This document shows positions 4,017 through 18,914 of a stretch of 64,000 nt of DNA, piece by piece. Within the stretch, counting starts at the first letter, position 1. The number at the start of each line of letters is the position of its first letter. Source of the stretch: a virus; the IMG/VR virus record IMGVR_UViG_3300031521_000012, positions 1 through 64,000 of that record; one strand, given 5' to 3'. The position numbers were made by a program, and so were the translations under genes. The notes beneath the pieces were generated by a model, which was not told the DNA's origin, did no database searches, and was given only the letters and a program-made list of their open reading frames with translations.

Positions 4017-4580
4017 ATGGAAACCAACAAAACAAGTTTAAATATTACTGATGTTTATAACAAGTACTATTCAGAAATTTTGTACTTAGTTACAATGAAA
4101 GTTAGAAAAGTTGAACTTGCTGAAGATTTAACTTCAGATGTTTTTATTAGAGCTTATAATCACTTGGCTAGTTTTGATAGCAACAAGTGTACTATAAAGA
4201 GCTGGTTAATTGCAATATCAAATAACGCAATTATTGATTATTACAGGTTATCACAAACCAAAACAAATATCAATTTCAGTGACTTGGCAAAGGTTAATAG
4301 CGAAAATGAAGTAATTAGTTTTGATAGCGTATCGGATTACAAAACTGATAACCTTATTAATGCTAAGGAATTTAATCACAAAATAGATGCTATCTTTAAT
4401 AGCATGAAACCAAACTACCAAAAAGTTGCTGAACTATACTTTAAAAAAGATATGAGTTACAATGATATTGCAGCAATTTGTGAAATTCCTTTAGGTAGTG
4501 TTAAGGGAATGATTAACAGGTGCAAAGTATTGTTACAAAGTAATTTACAAGCTGAAAAAGCTGAATATGGCATAAAATAA
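4017..4580 (+). CDS. ECF-type (sigma-70 group 4) RNA polymerase sigma factor
   Basis: 187 aa; region 2 AEDLTSDVFIRAY...KSWLIAISNNAIIDYYR; region 4 MSYNDIAAICEIPLGSVKGMINR. Confidence 0.93.
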   Translation: METNKTSLNITDVYNKYYSEILYLVTMKVRKVELAEDLTSDVFIRAYNHLASFDSNKCTIKSWLIAISNNAIIDYYRLSQTKTNINFSDLAKVNSENEVISFDSVSDYKTDNLINAKEFNHKIDAIFNSMKPNYQKVAELYFKKDMSYNDIAAICEIPLGSVKGMINRCKVLLQSNLQAEKAEYGIK

Positions 4581-13380: not shown

Positions 13381-13776
13381 ATGGAAGATACTTTAATCAC
13401 ACTAAAAACATTTCATTCAGCTAAGGAAAAGGGTTTCAGTAATATCAAAACCTTTTACGATAGAGTAAAGAAAAGCTATTGTGATGCAAGAGGTGAGCCA
13501 ACAAATGAAACTTATTTCCGTGCTGAACTTGTGACTGAAGAGGTTATTCCTACTCAATCACTTTTGGCTAAATGGCTACGTGAAGTACATTTAATTTATA
13601 TTAGTGTTATCATATCCGATACTGATGATTATATTAATGAACCACGTTATAAGGTTGAAGTAAGAATGAGAAGAGGTGATATGCTTAAAATGTTTAAAAC
13701 AACCTATATGTTTTTAAAGTATGATGATGCTTTAGAAACGGGTTTACAAGAAGCATTAAAATTGATAAAGTTATAA
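13381..13776 (+). CDS. Hypothetical phage protein
   Basis: PTQSLLAKWLREVH...ALETGLQEALKLI. Confidence 0.8.
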   Translation: MEDTLITLKTFHSAKEKGFSNIKTFYDRVKKSYCDARGEPTNETYFRAELVTEEVIPTQSLLAKWLREVHLIYISVIISDTDDYINEPRYKVEVRMRRGDMLKMFKTTYMFLKYDDALETGLQEALKLIKL

Positions 13777-13796
13777 CATTTTTAATTAAAAATTGT

Positions 13797-14000
13797 ATGT
13801 CAAAAATTATATTAGACGTTACTGATTGTAACGTCAGAGAGTTATCAATAGTTCATGATGCTTTAAAATCATTAAATAAAGCAGTAGCAAGCATGAAAGT
13901 GTTTAGTGATACATTTGTGTCGGTAAGCAAAGATAATGCAGCAGAAGCAGCTAAAATGAACGATATTGATACTAATGCTATATGTGAACATTTCTTTTAG
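13797..14000 (+). CDS. Hypothetical protein
   Basis: Co-oriented small ORF. Confidence 0.65.
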   Translation: MSKIILDVTDCNVRELSIVHDALKSLNKAVASMKVFSDTFVSVSKDNAAEAAKMNDIDTNAICEHFF

Positions 14001-14068
14001 GCTTAAGTGGTTTTAAGTTTTAATTAAAAATTGCATGGCTATATTGGTCATGCTTTTTTGTTATTATT

Positions 14069-14098
14069 TGTAACTTTTAACCAAGTCAAACGTATTAT
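14069..14098 (+). promoter_or_regulatory. ECF-type phage promoter
   Basis: TGTAAC-N16-CGTATTAT. Confidence 0.85.
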
Positions 14099-14126
14099 AG
14101 ATATAACCACTTAAAATCTAAACACA

Positions 14127-14356
14127 ATGGCAACTAAAAAAATTAAAACAAACAGAGCAGTTCTTAATTCAATGATTAAAGAACTGAATGATTTTGAATT
14201 AGCAATCCTCAGAGAGAGAGAATTATGACTTCAGCAACCAATGTTGTTGCATCCAAAGAACAACTGATGGTATCAATGAAAGATCATTTCATTTCACCTA
14301 TGCTTTATGTAGGCACAATGGAAAGAGTTTTGAAACTTGTTAAGTTTGATGATTAA
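14127..14356 (+). pseudogene. 75-aa gene interrupted by a frameshift in an (AG)5 tract
   Basis: Removing one AG at 14211-14220 joins MATKKIK...LRER to IMTSAT...VKFDD*. Confidence 0.7.
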
Positions 14357-14376
14357 CAGTTTTTAATTAAAAAGCT

Positions 14377-14502
14377 ATGAAACTGTATATCCAAAAGTTC
14401 ATCAAGAAATATCATATTGCATTATACATACTAAAGATAGTTCTTGTAATGTCAGCAATGACTTATTACCTATCACATGTAACAGTAACAGCTAAATTCT
14501 AA
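14377..14502 (+). CDS. Small membrane peptide (41 aa)
   Basis: MKLYIQK...IALYILKIVLVMSAMTYYL; AAAGCT-ATG leader like neighbours. Confidence 0.55.
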   Translation: MKLYIQKFIKKYHIALYILKIVLVMSAMTYYLSHVTVTAKF

Positions 14503-14506
14503 AGCT

Positions 14507-14650
14507 ATGAAAAAGTTCATTGTCAAACATAAAGCTATCATATTTATATCAATAGTTATTATCATTGGAGTATCAGCATTTTTATACTTTCATGGAGTGC
14601 CTGTTGATAGTGCAGAAAAGTTCACTTGGGATAACCTGTTGAACGGTTAA
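14507..14650 (+). CDS. Small membrane peptide (47 aa)
   Basis: MKKFIVKHKAIIFISIVIIIGVSAFLYF; AAAGCT-ATG leader. Confidence 0.55.
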   Translation: MKKFIVKHKAIIFISIVIIIGVSAFLYFHGVPVDSAEKFTWDNLLNG

Positions 14651-14841
14651 GAATGAGTATTAACATATGTTATAAACCAGCCTAAAGAAAGCATAGTATG
14701 GACAGAGCGCCCCCGAAGTAATTACTTCTAAATATAATAACAAATGTTATAAGACAAATTTTAAAAAGCAATGGTTATGGTGACCCATTGCTTTTTTTAA
14801 TTAAAAACAGTTGATTATTAATTAAAAAAGTTTATACTTTT

Positions 14842-14872
14842 TGTAACATTTAACCCTACTTAAACGTATTAT
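14842..14872 (+). promoter_or_regulatory. ECF-type phage promoter
   Basis: TGTAAC-N17-CGTATTAT; drives non-coding unit B. Confidence 0.85.
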
Positions 14873-14876
14873 ATGT

Positions 14877-14953
14877 ATACAGCGGAGTTACACTAGGGGT
14901 ATCGGTAATCCACTCCTGCAATAGAGTGTAAGTTTAGAATGATTCTAAATTAG
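14877..14953 (+). ncRNA. Conserved non-coding unit B
   Basis: ATACAGCGGAGTTACACTAGGGGTATCGGTAATCCACTCCTGCAATAGAGTGTAAG then TTTAGAATGATTCTAAAT. Confidence 0.6.
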
Positions 14954-15068
14954 CAATATTTGTAACATGTTTACAAAATAGTGATCACATATTACTATTA
15001 ATGACTATCTTTGCAAAGATAATGGGTAATAAAACTACTTAAAATATTATCAATTAATTGTGATAATC

Positions 15069-15098
15069 TGTAACCTTTTGCCTTGTCAAACGTATTAT
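15069..15098 (+). promoter_or_regulatory. ECF-type phage promoter
   Basis: TGTAAC-N16-CGTATTAT. Confidence 0.85.
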
Positions 15099-15120
15099 AG
15101 ATATAACCAAAACTTTTATT

Positions 15121-15918
15121 ATGAACTTCACAACAATTGGAAAAGCCACAAAGGAAACAAAGTTATCTTATTTAGGTGGAATTAATATTTCGGCAAAGAT
15201 AATTAAGAACATGAAAGTTAGTGATAACTATACATATCTTATCTACCTTGCACCTGCTAATCAAAGTGGTTACAACGTTTGCAGTCATTCTACTCCTGAA
15301 TGTCGTTTAGGTTGCTTGTCAACAAGTGGTCGGGCTGGTATGGATATTACTTGCGGTGCAAATATTATCAAAAATGCTCGAATAGCCAAAACAAAATTGT
15401 TTTTTGAACAACCTACTTTCTTTATGGATTGGTTAATTGCTGACTTAATTAAGTTTGAAAAGAAAGCTATCAAAGATGGTTTTGCATTTTCAGTAAGACT
15501 TAATGGAACTTCGGATATTGATTGGGCAAATGTTTTGCACAATGGTAAGAATATCTTTGATACTTTTCCACACGTGACTTTTTATGATTATAGTAAACGA
15601 TTTGAAAAGTTTATTGATACTCCAAAAAATTATCACTTAACATACTCCTATACTGGTCGTAATTGGGACAATGCAAATGTACTACTTCAACAAGGTAAGA
15701 ATGTAGCAGTTGTATTTAATGTAGGTAAAAAAGAAGAGTTACCTGCAACGTTTAGAGGTTATGAAGTTATAAACGGTGATTTAACCGACTACCGGGTTAC
15801 AGACGGTTCAGGTGTTATTGTTGGTTTACGTTTCAAACATATTCAAAATAAAGAGGTTGAAAAAAGAATAATTAACAGTTGTTTTGTAGTTCAGCCTAAT
15901 GATATTGATTGTAAATAA
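15121..15918 (+). CDS. GP88-like phage protein (Cys cluster)
   Basis: NVCSHSTPECRLGCL..SGR, VRLNGTSDI, FYDYSK, NGDLTDYR. Confidence 0.7.
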   Translation: MNFTTIGKATKETKLSYLGGINISAKIIKNMKVSDNYTYLIYLAPANQSGYNVCSHSTPECRLGCLSTSGRAGMDITCGANIIKNARIAKTKLFFEQPTFFMDWLIADLIKFEKKAIKDGFAFSVRLNGTSDIDWANVLHNGKNIFDTFPHVTFYDYSKRFEKFIDTPKNYHLTYSYTGRNWDNANVLLQQGKNVAVVFNVGKKEELPATFRGYEVINGDLTDYRVTDGSGVIVGLRFKHIQNKEVEKRIINSCFVVQPNDIDCK

Positions 15919-15986: not shown

Positions 15987-16547
15987 ATGAATGAAATTTG
16001 GAAACCAATTGAAGATTACCTAGGCTACTATGAAGTATCTAATTATGGTAATGTACGTAGCTTAAAGAGAAAATTTGCTAATGGTCGAATATTAAAACCT
16101 GCAACAAACAAATATGGATATTTACAAGTAGGTTTATGTTTTGAAAGTAAACTGAGTAGCTATACGGTTCATTCCTTAGTTGCAAAAGCATTTATACCTA
16201 ATCCAGAAAATAGACCTACTGTTAATCACAAAGATGGAATTAAATCAAATTGTCACTACTTAAATCTTGAATGGGCTACTAAATCTGAACAAGCAATACA
16301 TTCATTAAGAACAGGCTTGAGAGTAATGCCTGAAAATTGGAAAGGTAAATTTGGTTCTAAGCATGGAGCAAGTAAATATGTTATTAAGCTATCAATGTAC
16401 GATGAATATATTTGTGAATATGGCTCAATGATTGAAGCTGCAAATATCAATAATATTGATGCTGGTCAAATAACAAATGTATGTAAAGGAAATAAAAAAA
16501 CAGCAGGTGGATTTAAATGGAAATATAAAGCAATTGTTGTAACATAA
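15987..16547 (+). CDS. NUMOD4-HNH homing endonuclease with C-terminal NUMOD1-like domain
   Basis: EIWKPI...YEVSNYGNVRS, VNHKDGIKSNC..NLEW, CKGNKKTAGGFKWKY. Confidence 0.9.
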   Translation: MNEIWKPIEDYLGYYEVSNYGNVRSLKRKFANGRILKPATNKYGYLQVGLCFESKLSSYTVHSLVAKAFIPNPENRPTVNHKDGIKSNCHYLNLEWATKSEQAIHSLRTGLRVMPENWKGKFGSKHGASKYVIKLSMYDEYICEYGSMIEAANINNIDAGQITNVCKGNKKTAGGFKWKYKAIVVT

Positions 16548-16568: not shown

Positions 16569-16631
16569 AGTTATATGCAATTAAGCAATGTACAACTTTT
16601 AATTAAAAACAATCATTAAAACATAACCACA

Positions 16632-17764: not shown

Positions 17765-18121
17765 ATGGAACTAAACCAGAATGTACTCGATGAATACGTT
17801 TCTTATTTAAAAAAGAAATATACCAACAAAATATTGGAACTTAGATTAGACCATTGTACGGATGAATATGGAGAATATATTTATCTTAAATGTATTATCA
17901 TTAAACTATCTCAACAATCTAAGGGATATGGCTCAGCCATAATGTATGACTTAGTTAAGCTTGCTGATGACTGCAATGTACGCATAGTATTAGTAGTAAC
18001 TAATATGTTCGGCTCAGACTTGACACGCTTATATGGCTTCTATCGCAAGCATGGGTTTATTGGTAAAGATAATAGCGATGTTATGTTTTACATTCCAGTA
18101 ACGGTAATAGCATATAAATAA
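17765..18121 (+). CDS. GNAT-family acetyltransferase
   Basis: QQSKGYGS acetyl-CoA motif and RLYGFYRKHGF. Confidence 0.75.
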   Translation: MELNQNVLDEYVSYLKKKYTNKILELRLDHCTDEYGEYIYLKCIIIKLSQQSKGYGSAIMYDLVKLADDCNVRIVLVVTNMFGSDLTRLYGFYRKHGFIGKDNSDVMFYIPVTVIAYK

Positions 18122-18137
18122 AATAAATCACTATTTT

Positions 18138-18167
18138 TGTAACCTTTTGCCTTCTCAAACGTATTAT
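18138..18167 (+). promoter_or_regulatory. ECF-type phage promoter
   Basis: TGTAAC-N16-CGTATTAT; precedes structured non-coding region. Confidence 0.85.
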
Positions 18168-18174
18168 AGATATA

Positions 18175-18535
18175 ACACATCAGCTGCTAATTACAGTATG
18201 TGGGAGTACTTGAAGATATGCATCTCCGTACCGTAAAGCGGTTAGAGGGATGCGACTTCAGGGAAGACAACGGATGTAGCTTCAGGGAAGCAAAAATATT
18301 GAAGAAACAAAATCCAACTGTAAGTTGAAAAACGTAATGATGATTCCGACCTACCTTACTAGCTAAGAGTAAACCTGCATGAATCTTATAGTTTCAATGG
18401 TTAACAGCAATGGTTATTCAGGGGCATACCTCATGCCGTAAGAGGACTGAATAGGTGAACAGAGTGCTACGTTTGAGTAGTTGTTTATTCAGCTAATAAC
18501 TTATACGCAGCGAAAGAAGTAGCACACTGTTTATT
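18175..18535 (+). ncRNA. Candidate ~360-nt structured ncRNA
   Basis: No ORF, raised GC, multiple helices (TTACAGT/ACTGTAA, TATTCAG/CTGAATA, GTGCTAC/GTAGCAC), own promoter. Confidence 0.6.
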
Positions 18536-18560
18536 ATAAACAATTTTTAATTAAAAAGTT

Positions 18561-18842
18561 ATGGACAAGCCAATTATAATTAACCATCAACAAATTTCTT
18601 ATTGTGAAGCAACAGGACTAATCTATGTTGGGGAAGTCCCATTCACAAAAGAAATGCTTGAAAAATTTCAAAACTTGATTGAATATTCTTGTGAAGGTAA
18701 AAATCAGTTCATGTTTAGAATTCAAGTATTGGATGTTATTAATTATGGATGTGCTTCTATTGATGTAGAAATGCTTGATGCAATTCAACAATACGTTAAA
18801 GAAAATAATTTAACTGTAGCGTCAGATAAAGATTTTAAATAA
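18561..18842 (+). CDS. Hypothetical protein
   Basis: Co-oriented ORF followed by terminator. Confidence 0.75.
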   Translation: MDKPIIINHQQISYCEATGLIYVGEVPFTKEMLEKFQNLIEYSCEGKNQFMFRIQVLDVINYGCASIDVEMLDAIQQYVKENNLTVASDKDFK

Positions 18843-18874: not shown

Positions 18875-18914
18875 TATCCCGTTGCTTGTGGTTAGGCAAC
18901 GGGATTCCTTTTTT
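18875..18914 (+). terminator. Intrinsic terminator
   Basis: ATCCCGTTGCTT-gtggtt-AGGCAACGGGAT then T-run. Confidence 0.75.

What the first reader, a model, noticed from the sequence alone, without database searches (positions are those of the whole stretch)
18138..18535. Promoter-driven ~360-nt structured ncRNA candidate
Seen: an ECF-type promoter followed by 360 ORF-free nt of higher GC than the background. Helices include TTACAGT/ACTGTAA (18191/18317) enclosing GCATC..ACCG-TAAAG-CGGT..GATGC and two identical CTTCAGGGAAG mini-hairpins (18256, 18280). TATTCAG/CTGAATA (18415/18447) encloses GGCAT/ATGCC with an alternative or pseudoknot CCTC/GAGG pair, and AACAG-A-GTGCTAC pairs with GTAGCAC-A-CTGTT (18458/18519). 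Inference: a large phage ncRNA or structured leader; the duplicated hairpin suggests a protein-titrating sponge.
Basis: partly seen in the sequence, partly recalled or inferred. Interest (0 to 1): 0.7.

Follow-up and report, generated by a model that had tools for sequence, protein, structure and literature searches.

The report
Conserved pseudoknotted ncRNA of huge phages
The ORF-free stretch is a real non-coding RNA gene: its last 240 bases belong to a previously undescribed, single-copy structured RNA family shared by a clade of huge environmental phages, and its function is still unknown.

Summary
The promoter is one of more than 40 copies of a phage promoter, TGTAAC-N16-CGTATWAT.

The 3' two-thirds (18296-18540) is a member of a conserved RNA family. 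I found it in about 25 related phage contigs, once per genome in five phage records (covariance model E 1e-7 to 1e-13). No Rfam family matches, and I found no prior description in the indexed literature.

Covariation supports three elements:
- Helix P1 (18415-21/18447-53): 99% paired, 6 of 7 pairs with double changes.
- Hairpin P2 plus the CCTC/GAGG pairing, which is a true H-type pseudoknot. Both are present in all 16 short-form members, with 14 different P2 sequences.
- The terminal hairpin, which is the unit's terminator.

A long-range helix, CCAACUG x CAG-CAA-UGG, is also likely.

The 5' third, with the duplicated CTTCAGGGAAG, is specific to this phage. Relatives carry a tRNA, an aberrant tRNA-like element or a 46-aa ORF at that position. 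So the sponge idea has no comparative support, and the TTACAGT/ACTGTAA helix competes with the conserved long-range helix.

Most likely it is a stable, trans-acting RNA with a compact pseudoknot platform. In this phage it also serves as the 5' leader of ORF 18561. The closest analogue, by position only, is T4 rnaC/rnaD.

The parts
18138..18167 (+). Phage early promoter TGTAAC-N16-CGTATTAT (ECF-type -35/-10). The start site is inferred at about 18173-18176.
   Evidence: 7 matches in the window against 0.33 expected. More than 40 copies in the genome, each 14-53 nt before an ATG. The first 39 nt recur at 85-97% identity. The window encodes a 187-aa sigma factor with only regions 2 and 4, at 4017-4580. 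The start site was not measured.
18174..18295 (+). Lineage-specific 5' domain. It contains a very stable hairpin (18209-18262) and two CTTCAGGGAAG copies (18256, 18280). It occupies the slot where relatives carry a tRNA, a tRNA-like element or a small ORF.
   Evidence: z -4.0 for 18186-18328 and z -5.1 for 18205-18270, with 0 of 200 shuffles as stable. No homologue was found anywhere. At the same place L054 has a 46-aa ORF and L053 has unrelated sequence. L073, L089, L103 and L107 have tRNA-like genes.
18296..18313 (+). Conserved purine-rich lead-in AUAUUGAAGAAACAAAAU (family consensus UAUUUAAGAARCGAAAYG).
   Evidence: It aligns to relatives. In tRNA-bearing relatives the last 8-9 nt (CGAGAAAYG) link the tRNA 3' end to CCAACCG.
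18314..18320 (+). H1 5' strand, CCAACUG (CCAACCG in the other relatives with this motif).
   Evidence: Present 51-172 nt upstream of the core in 23 of 25 tabulated members. RNAalifold pairs it with CGG-NAA-UGG.
18321..18402 (+). Variable central domain. It is short and weakly structured here; relatives have a larger conserved irregular helix.
   Evidence: z +0.8 for 18330-18412. The length between the H1 strands varies from 51 to 172 nt. The helix GCCACGUAGCAGAAUUC...GAACGUAUGCACCCAUGCCG of the long-form members is absent here.
18403..18415 (+). Most conserved stretch, AACAGCAAUGGUU. The H1 3' strand is CAG 18405-07 and UGG 18411-13, with CAA as an internal loop.
   Evidence: Invariant or near-invariant columns in A2. 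CUG/CAG here and in L054 against CCG/CGG elsewhere is a compensatory change. The 3-nt loop varies (CAA, UAA, AAA, CUC) while CGG and UGG stay fixed.
18415..18453 (+). Pseudoknot module. P1 is 18415-18421/18447-18453. P2 is 18423-18427/18433-18437. The pseudoknot pairs CCUC 18429-18432 with GAGG 18442-18445.
   Evidence: CM R1 scores it at 61 bits, E 7e-13. P1: 99.4% of cells paired, 6 of 7 pairs with double changes, 0 of 500 shuffles as good. P2 plus pseudoknot were found in all 16 short-form members; per-sequence shuffle p ran from below 0.001 to 0.044, combined p 2e-20. One population contig (L052) lacks exactly 18411-18455.
18455..18539 (+). Terminal long hairpin (18455-62/18527-34 and 18464-70/18519-25) followed by UUUAUUAU. 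It is the family's terminator position; here it is probably leaky.
   Evidence: z -3.1. L054 keeps it through GCAUCAC/GUGAUGC against GUGCUAC/GUAGCAC. Relatives have AAACCCCC...GGGGGUUUUU at the same place. The simple terminator scan does not call it, because its loop is 48 nt.
18561..18842 (+). 93-aa ORF with no known family and no TGTAAC promoter of its own. A canonical terminator follows at 18876-18905.
   Evidence: The gene after the RNA in L054 begins with a similar N-terminus, seen by eye. Other relatives have unrelated genes behind their own promoters.
17765..18121 (+). Upstream 118-aa GNAT acetyltransferase. It is a frequent but not obligatory neighbour of the RNA.
   Evidence: Pfam gives weak GNAT hits, and homologues are 56-74% identical. 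GNAT is adjacent to the RNA in G002 and G004, 33 kb away in G001, and not found in G003 and G005, which still have the RNA.

Best explanation
The region is a non-coding RNA gene transcribed from one of the phage's own early promoters. The transcript, about 365 nt (about 18174 to 18538), has two parts.

(1) A 5' domain of about 120 nt found only in this phage. It fills a 'cargo slot' that holds a tRNA, an aberrant tRNA-like element or a small ORF in relatives.

(2) A conserved core of about 240 nt. A purine-rich lead-in and the long-range helix H1 (CCAACUG x CAG-CAA-UGG) close a variable central domain. Directly next to H1 sits helix P1. It encloses hairpin P2, whose loop pairs with the 3' linker to form an H-type pseudoknot. 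A long terminal hairpin with a U-rich tail ends the unit.

Shown here: the promoter motif, homology, single-copy conservation across a clade of huge phages, and covariation for P1, P2, the pseudoknot and the terminal stem.

Inferred: the core acts as a stable RNA in its own right. The H1/P1/pseudoknot junction would then be a compact binding platform for a phage or host protein or RNA. In tRNA-bearing relatives the core would be released from the upstream tRNA(-like) element by tRNA-processing nucleases. In this phage and in L054 the terminal hairpin has a weak U tract and no promoter follows it, so read-through probably also makes the RNA the 5' leader of ORF 18561.
For: - Promoter. ECF-type sigma gene in the window.
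- Homologues lie downstream of GNAT genes in unrelated metagenomes: nhmmer E 1.6e-18 to L054, weaker to L060.
- CM R1 finds exactly one significant copy in each of G000, G001, G002, G003 and G005, and in L010 and L018, which were fetched through rIIA rather than GNAT.
- P1: 99.4% paired, 30 cells with changes on both sides, 0 of 500 shuffles as good, and slid controls 12-60% paired.
- P2 plus pseudoknot: present in 16 of 16 short-form members, with different sequences in nearly every one.
- G-U pairs in P1 (for example CUGGAU in L054) only work on the + strand.
- H1: predicted independently by RNAalifold on 7 long-form members, with compensatory CUG/CAG in the window and L054.
- Independent unit in relatives: a terminator and then a new TGTAAC promoter in L056, L060, L082 and L087. 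The downstream genes are not homologous.
- No frame is conserved; frames are full of mixed stop codons.
Against: - There is no expression data. No RNA run holds the sequence, so the start, the end and stability are all inferred.
- The conserved core is not unusually stable as a single sequence (z -0.5).
- H1 rests on essentially one clean compensatory event.
- One population contig (L052) lacks exactly the pseudoknot module. If that is not an assembly error, the module is not strictly essential.
- Three GNAT loci with enough downstream sequence have no RNA (L092, L095, L097).
- Nothing identifies a binding partner, so the 'platform' mechanism is inference from architecture alone.
- In this phage the ORF that follows has no promoter, so a purely cis role cannot be excluded.
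Confidence: 0.6

Rival explanations
1. It is a cis-acting 5' leader or attenuator. The RNA exists to control read-through or translation of ORF 18561, and the terminal hairpin is a regulated terminator.
For: ORF 18561 has no TGTAAC promoter. It starts 22 nt after the U-rich tail, and the first canonical terminator comes only at 18876-18905. L054 has the same layout, and its next gene begins with a similar N-terminus, seen by eye.
Against: In most relatives a strong terminator (GGGGGUUUUU) and a new promoter separate the RNA from the next gene, and that gene differs between relatives. What is conserved therefore follows the RNA, not a regulated gene. No Rfam leader or riboswitch model matches.
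Confidence: 0.15
2. It is a 3' processing or stabilising module for the upstream cargo. [quoted passage not shown] In this phage it would be left over, with a different cargo.
For: A constant 8-9-nt spacer (CGAGAAAYG) links the tRNA 3' end to CCAACCG. The cargo varies while the core stays constant. There is precedent for tRNA-adjacent ribozymes in phages: the theta ribozymes (PMC10879173).
Against: The strand order P1-P2-PK-P2'-PK'-P1' is not the HDV-like nested double pseudoknot. The pseudoknot lies about 100 nt or more from the tRNA end, whereas theta ribozymes cleave within 5 nt of it. No ribozyme model of Rfam matches at E <= 1 in 17 relatives or E <= 10 in the window. Members without any tRNA keep the core (window, L054, L056, L067, L070, L091).
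Confidence: 0.12
3. The 5' part encodes a small protein (the 12-codon ORF at ATG 18198 or the 42-codon GTG frame 18200-18328), and the conserved core is its 3' UTR.
For: ATG 18198 lies 30 nt after the -10 box, the normal distance for genes of this phage. L054 has a plausible 46-aa ORF in the same slot. JGI's gene caller called the 42-aa frame on one contig. The two CTTCAGGGAAG copies are 24 nt apart, so they are in frame.
Against: The ATG ORF stops after 12 codons. The longer frame needs a GTG start, and every large gene sampled here starts with ATG. The frame runs through a hairpin with z -5.1. It shows no similarity to the L054 peptide, seen by eye. Nine other contigs of the same phage have no gene called there.
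Confidence: 0.08
4. It is a protein-titrating sponge that works through the duplicated CUUCAGGGAAG hairpins.
For: There are two identical 11-mers 24 nt apart. By my own estimate an exact 11-nt repeat within about 400 nt has a chance of roughly 0.02. From memory, CAGGGAAG resembles the CsrA-type GGA motif.
Against: Neither copy, nor the domain that holds them, occurs in any relative. In the MFE each CUUC pairs with a distal GAAG instead of forming the mini-hairpin. Two sites are few for a sponge.
Confidence: 0.05

Closest known systems
Phage T4 small stable RNAs rnaD and rnaC (species 2 and species 1 RNAs)
   Same: They are stable phage RNAs of unknown function, each about 120-140 nt. They sit directly downstream of a tRNA gene (tRNA-Arg) in the same orientation. 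That is the arrangement seen in many relatives of this RNA: tRNA(-like), a short spacer, then a structured RNA.
   Different: No detectable sequence or structure similarity. CM R1 gives no hit on them, nhmmer gives none, and local alignment scores no better than shuffles (160 of 300). The T4 RNAs end in tRNA-like CCA or T-arm features. This family ends in a terminator hairpin and has an enclosed H-type pseudoknot. The resemblance is in position only.
Theta (minimal HDV-like) ribozymes next to phage tRNAs (PMC10879173)
   Same: They are structured, pseudoknotted RNA elements immediately 3' of tRNA genes in phages that probably infect Bacteroidota.
   Different: Theta ribozymes cleave within +/-5 nt of the tRNA end and have the HDV nested double pseudoknot. 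Here the pseudoknot is about 100 nt or more from the tRNA end, has a different strand order, and persists in members with no tRNA. No HDV model of Rfam matches.
T-box leader RNAs
   Same: Both are multi-domain RNAs with an H-type pseudoknot, a conserved UGGN element and a terminal terminator hairpin. The H1 pairing NCCA x UGGN looks like the T-box/tRNA acceptor-end contact. That resemblance is recalled from memory and is only a lead.
   Different: The Rfam T-box model gives no match. The order of elements differs. There is no specifier stem, and no conserved amino-acid-related gene downstream.
Candidate structured RNAs catalogued from IMG/VR (PMC10690425)
   Same: It is the same kind of object: a covarying intergenic RNA motif in uncultured phage contigs.
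   Different: I could not check whether this motif is among the 8,495 IMG/VR candidates, because no supplementary files are held. The main text mentions nothing like it.

Membership tests
Any Rfam 15 family | A covariance-model match at or near the gathering score | tested here: not met
   No gathering hit in the whole window. Nothing in 18138-18560 at E <= 10. Across 17 relatives only tRNA hits and chance-level matches, none on the conserved core.
New phage RNA family defined here (model R1) | AC(G/A)GCAAUGGUU followed by a 6-7-bp P1 and UAGRGAAAC | tested here: met
   The window scores 61 bits, E 7e-13. 24 members score at E <= 2e-4.
New phage RNA family defined here (model R1) | A P2 hairpin inside P1 whose loop pairs with the 3' linker (short form) | tested here: met
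   Window: GGCAU[ACCUC]AUGCC ... GAGG, p 0.009 against shuffles. All 16 short-form members have it.
New phage RNA family defined here (model R1) | An upstream CCAAC(C/U)G able to pair with C(G/A)G-NNN-UGG | tested here: met
   Window CCAACUG 18314 with CAG..UGG 18405-13. 22 of the 25 tabulated members form both halves of the helix; the L072 row is mis-registered, the L080 row uses the wrong CCAAC copy, and L010 has no CCAACNG within 300 nt.
New phage RNA family defined here (model R1) | A terminal long hairpin with a U run | tested here: met
   Window 18455-18534 plus UUUAUUAU. The U tract is weaker than in most relatives.
ECF-type (group 4 sigma) promoter | A GTAAC-like -35 and a CGT-containing -10 at 16-nt spacing, repeated before many genes, with a cognate sigma present | tested here: met
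   A sigma factor with only regions 2 and 4 lies at 4017-4580. Which sigma reads the promoter, and the start site, cannot be tested here.
tRNA / tmRNA | A cloverleaf or tRNA-like domain recognised by ARAGORN or by the Rfam tRNA/tmRNA models | tested here: not met
   ARAGORN finds none in the window, and there is no Rfam hit in the region. Relatives do have tRNA-like genes in the 5' slot. The tmRNA hit on L060 scores only 18.9 bits against a gathering score of 47.
HDV-like theta ribozyme | A nested double pseudoknot with its cleavage site within 5 nt of a tRNA 3' end | tested here: not met
   The strand order differs, the distance is about 100 nt or more, and no HDV model matches. Self-cleavage itself cannot be tested here.
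T-box leader | Stem I with a specifier, the T-box sequence, an antiterminator/terminator switch, and an amino-acid-related gene downstream | tested here: not met
   No Rfam T-box match. The downstream genes are unrelated ORFs of unknown function.
T4 rnaC/rnaD | Sequence or structure similarity to the T4 species 1 and 2 RNAs | tested here: not met
   Only the position after a tRNA is shared.
CsrB/RsmZ-type protein sponge | Many repeated GGA-loop hairpins, conserved among relatives | tested here: not met
   There are only two copies, they are not conserved, and they do not form hairpins in the MFE.

The most novel reading that the evidence does not exclude
The conserved core may be a new class of tRNA-linked functional RNA: a riboregulator or ribozyme that reads or processes the aberrant tRNA-like element fused to its 5' side. 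Under this reading, the conserved NCCA x UGGN pairing of H1 next to the pseudoknot would mimic or compete with a tRNA acceptor end, as in T-box RNAs. The huge phages would use it to control or decoy host tRNA-directed enzymes, for example anticodon nucleases or processing RNases.
Probability: 0.1. Interest if true: 0.85.

Novelty: new variant of a known kind. Interest (0 to 1): 0.6.

Why it matters
Huge phages with 50 or more tRNA genes are known only from metagenomes, and almost nothing is known about their RNA biology. This work defines a structured RNA family of about 230-320 nt. Covariation support is strong for its pseudoknot module. It has its own early promoter and terminator, and it occurs exactly once per genome across phages whose rIIA proteins are only 39-49% identical.

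Conservation that deep implies a function. The family's frequent fusion to tRNA-like elements with unusable anticodon loops links it to the old, unsolved question of what tRNA-adjacent stable phage RNAs, such as T4 rnaC/rnaD, are for.

The compact P1/P2/pseudoknot module (about 40 nt) is small enough for direct structural and binding studies.

There is also a practical lesson. The conserved part is not thermodynamically exceptional, while the eye-catching stable hairpins are the non-conserved part.

Tried and rejected
- BLAST of the region and of 20 kb around it against 50,697 phage records found no match.
- An exact-pattern scan for the duplicated hairpin in IMG/VR found none.
- Searches with the flanking small proteins in IMG/VR found no relatives. 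The 93-aa ORF matched only itself among 5.8 billion proteins.
- Five rIIA-anchored relatives searched with the raw DNA gave only AT-rich tail matches. The covariance model later found the RNA in them.
- Sequencing runs: no RNA holder is listed, and all holders are peat DNA metagenomes. Contigs laid from four runs showed no variants within 18138-18560. Nine of the ten population contigs are identical over the part of the region they cover; the tenth (L052) carries the 45-nt deletion. So the population offers no covariation.
- The pattern CCAACCG-N88-118-ACGGCAATGGTT hit more than 120 bacterial genomes and 17 viral contigs. My own estimate of the chance expectation, for 19 fixed bases and 31 spacings, is about 130 hits in the bacterial collection. 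The CM confirmed only 2 viral hits and no convincing bacterial one. I rejected a host origin or a universal RNA.
- Homology to T4 rnaC/rnaD was rejected.
- Y-RNA/Ro idea: there is no TROVE gene in five phage records and no YrlA-type Rfam hit.
- An obligatory link between GNAT and the RNA was rejected.
- Recoded stop codons were rejected: the frames carry a mix of TAA, TAG and TGA.
- The MAFFT alignment A2 is out of structural register for P2 and the pseudoknot. I therefore tested those per sequence against shuffles instead of by column counts.
- The supplementary tables of PMC10690425 are not held.
- A literature search for the core 12-mer found only unrelated primers.

Full report
**What the window is.** The window is the first 64 kb of a 168-kb IMG/VR virus record. 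CheckV estimates it as 51% complete, so the phage genome is probably larger than 300 kb. Near-identical DNA occurs in many peat metagenomes. The genome is about 30% GC. Genes start at ATG without Shine-Dalgarno sequences. Most early genes are preceded by the same promoter, TGTAAC-N16-CGTATWAT. The window also encodes a 187-aa sigma factor made only of regions 2 and 4, which is the ECF architecture.

**Checking the observation.** The promoter at 18138-18167 is one of more than 40 copies. In nearly all other copies an ATG follows 14-53 nt after the -10 box. Here the first ATG (18198, +30) opens a 12-codon frame, and the next sizeable ORF is 393 nt away. The only longer frame is a GTG-start 42-codon ORF. 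GC is modestly raised. The whole transcript folds somewhat better than shuffles (z -2.25). That signal comes from the 5' hairpin domain (z -4.0 and -5.1) and from the terminal hairpin (z -3.1).

**Finding relatives.** Nothing in Rfam matches. Direct DNA searches and the two flanking small proteins gave nothing in the phage or IMG/VR collections. The upstream 118-aa GNAT protein has homologues at 56-74% identity. Their contigs all show a 300-590-nt gap after the GNAT gene. nhmmer aligned the window's 3' part to these gaps (E 1.6e-18 to L054). A profile search with the GNAT alignment brought in 36 more loci.

I built a 72-position covariance model from 12 members. It finds 24 members at E <= 2e-4. 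It finds exactly one significant copy in each of five phage records (G000, G001, G002, G003, G005; E 1e-7 to 7e-13). These include loci fetched through rIIA rather than GNAT (L010, L018). The rIIA proteins of these phages are only 39-49% identical, so the RNA is deeply conserved.

GNAT adjacency is common but not obligatory. GNAT lies 33 kb from the RNA in G001 and is not found in G003 and G005. Three GNAT loci have no RNA at all.

**Architecture of the family**, in order:
- A TGTAAC promoter.
- A variable 5' slot.
- A purine-rich lead-in, UUAAGAARCGAAAYG.
- CCAAC(C/U)G.
- A variable central domain of 51-172 nt.
- AC(G/A)GCAAUGGUU.
- Helix P1. In 16 'short' members it encloses a hairpin P2 whose loop pairs with the 3' linker. 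In 'long' members it encloses an insertion of about 100 nt.
- UAGRGAAAC.
- A long terminal hairpin with a U run, in many relatives followed at once by a new promoter for the next, non-homologous gene.

**Covariation.** P1 is paired in 99.4% of cells. Six of its seven pairs show changes on both sides, no shuffle out of 500 reaches the observed values, and slid controls drop to 12-60% paired. That alignment was fitted to the model, so it leans towards the structure.

P2 and the pseudoknot could not be counted by column, because their lengths vary. I therefore searched each sequence for a P2 hairpin plus loop-linker pairing and compared the score with 1000 shuffles of the same interior. All 16 members have both elements, and the P2 sequences differ in nearly every one. 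The pseudoknot pairs are CCUC/GAGG, UCGUC/GACGA, CUCU/AGAG, CCUU/AAGG, CUGUUA/UAACAG, GAGCA/UGCUC, UCACCU/AGGUGA, CCCU/AGGG and CGUC/GACG. The combined p is about 2e-20, although the sequences are related and not fully independent.

The terminal stem covaries between the window and L054. RNAalifold on seven long-form members independently pairs GCCA-A-CCG with CGG-NAA-UGGU. The window and L054 carry CUG/CAG where the others have CCG/CGG. The three bases between CGG and UGG vary freely. I treat this helix, H1, as likely but not proven.

- TATTCAG/CTGAATA is P1.
- GGCAT/ATGCC is P2.
- CCTC/GAGG is a true pseudoknot, not an alternative fold.
- AACAGAGTGCTAC/GTAGCACACTGTT is the terminator-position hairpin.
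- TTACAGT/ACTGTAA and everything inside it, including the two CTTCAGGGAAG copies, lie in the 5' slot and have no counterpart in any relative.

In that slot:
- L054 has a plausible 46-aa ORF.
- L053 has unrelated sequence.
- L073, L089, L103 and L107 have tRNA-like genes with odd anticodons (AAU, AAU, AUG, AAA, all starting with A).
- L082 has a tRNA match by Rfam, and L087 has long tRNA-like elements seen by eye.
- L060 has a weak tmRNA-like element.

ACTGTAA overlaps the H1 strand, so that helix is at best a competing fold in this phage.

**Function.** The conserved unit follows the RNA itself, not any downstream gene. G-U pairs show that selection acts on the + strand RNA. No reading frame is conserved. 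I therefore read the core as a stand-alone structural RNA. H1, P1 with its pseudoknot, and the terminal stem meet at a purine-rich junction, which looks like a compact recognition platform. The partner is unknown.

In tRNA-bearing relatives the constant 8-9-nt spacer suggests that tRNA-processing enzymes release the core. In the window and L054 the terminal hairpin has only UUUAUUAU, and no promoter follows it. The RNA probably doubles as the leader of ORF 18561 by read-through, with the first canonical terminator at 18876-18905.

One population contig lacks exactly 18411-18455, which is the pseudoknot module. If that deletion is real, it argues against strict essentiality.

**Comparison with known systems.** T4 rnaD and rnaC sit directly after tRNA-Arg and are the nearest analogue by position. 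Three tests found no similarity. Theta ribozymes, T-box RNAs, tmRNA, Y RNAs and Csr-type sponges each fail a defining feature (see the membership table). A pattern scan that seemed to hit many bacterial genomes was at chance level and was not confirmed by the model. I found no prior description. The unnamed candidate lists of PMC10690425 could not be checked.

**Verdict.** This is a real, conserved and apparently undescribed phage ncRNA. Its pseudoknot module is well supported, and its function is unknown.

Noticed in passing
L103:901-1278 (G001, a complete 364.7-kb phage, about 219.1-219.45 kb): Six copies of a 36-nt repeat, GTTGTAAACAACCACAAATTGAAAGGTACTTACAAC, recur with a 65-66-nt period, leaving spacers of about 30 nt. 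It is a CRISPR-like mini-array. It lies immediately upstream of tRNA-like genes and that phage's copy of the RNA.
   Followed up: partly
L073:1020-1091, L089:1913-1987, L103:1328-1423, L107:1412-1486: The tRNA-like genes fused upstream of the RNA in relatives have anticodons that start with A (AAU, AAU, AUG, AAA). By eye, in the two I inspected (L073, L089) the anticodon loops are non-canonical (no U33, or a 5-nt loop). They look like non-decoding tRNA mimics.
   Followed up: partly
window 6926, 14842 and 18990 (+ strand): Three promoter copies are followed not by an ORF but by the same conserved sequence, ACAGCGGAGYTACACTAGGGGTAWCRGTAATCCAYWCC, and then by a second promoter before a large gene. 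Relatives also have a promoter, a gap and a second promoter before rIIA. This is a second, separate non-coding unit.
   Followed up: no
window 18411-18455 versus L052: One contig of the same phage population (sample 3300030047) carries a clean 45-nt deletion that removes exactly the P1/P2/pseudoknot module. The other nine contigs are identical to the window over the part of the region they cover.
   Followed up: partly
G001 and G002 (whole records): The two complete relatives, 365 kb and 327 kb, carry 53 and 59 Rfam tRNA matches, mostly in large clusters. The RNA studied here lies outside those clusters. G000 has three tRNA matches at 70.7-72.9 kb, outside the window.
   Followed up: no
window 13776-15121: This stretch of about 1.3 kb has no ORF of 80 aa or more, although it holds two promoter copies (14069 and 14842). 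The first is followed by only a 33-codon ORF.
   Followed up: no
window 18545-18557, 16592-16604, 18896-18908 and relatives: The palindrome TTTTAATTAAAA recurs right after terminators or right before start codons, in this phage and in relatives. Its role is unknown.
   Followed up: no
L054:3924-4748: In the closest relative that has the RNA, a LAGLIDADG homing-endonuclease gene sits between the RNA locus and rIIA. The window instead has an HNH/NUMOD4 endonuclease at 15987-16547.
   Followed up: no
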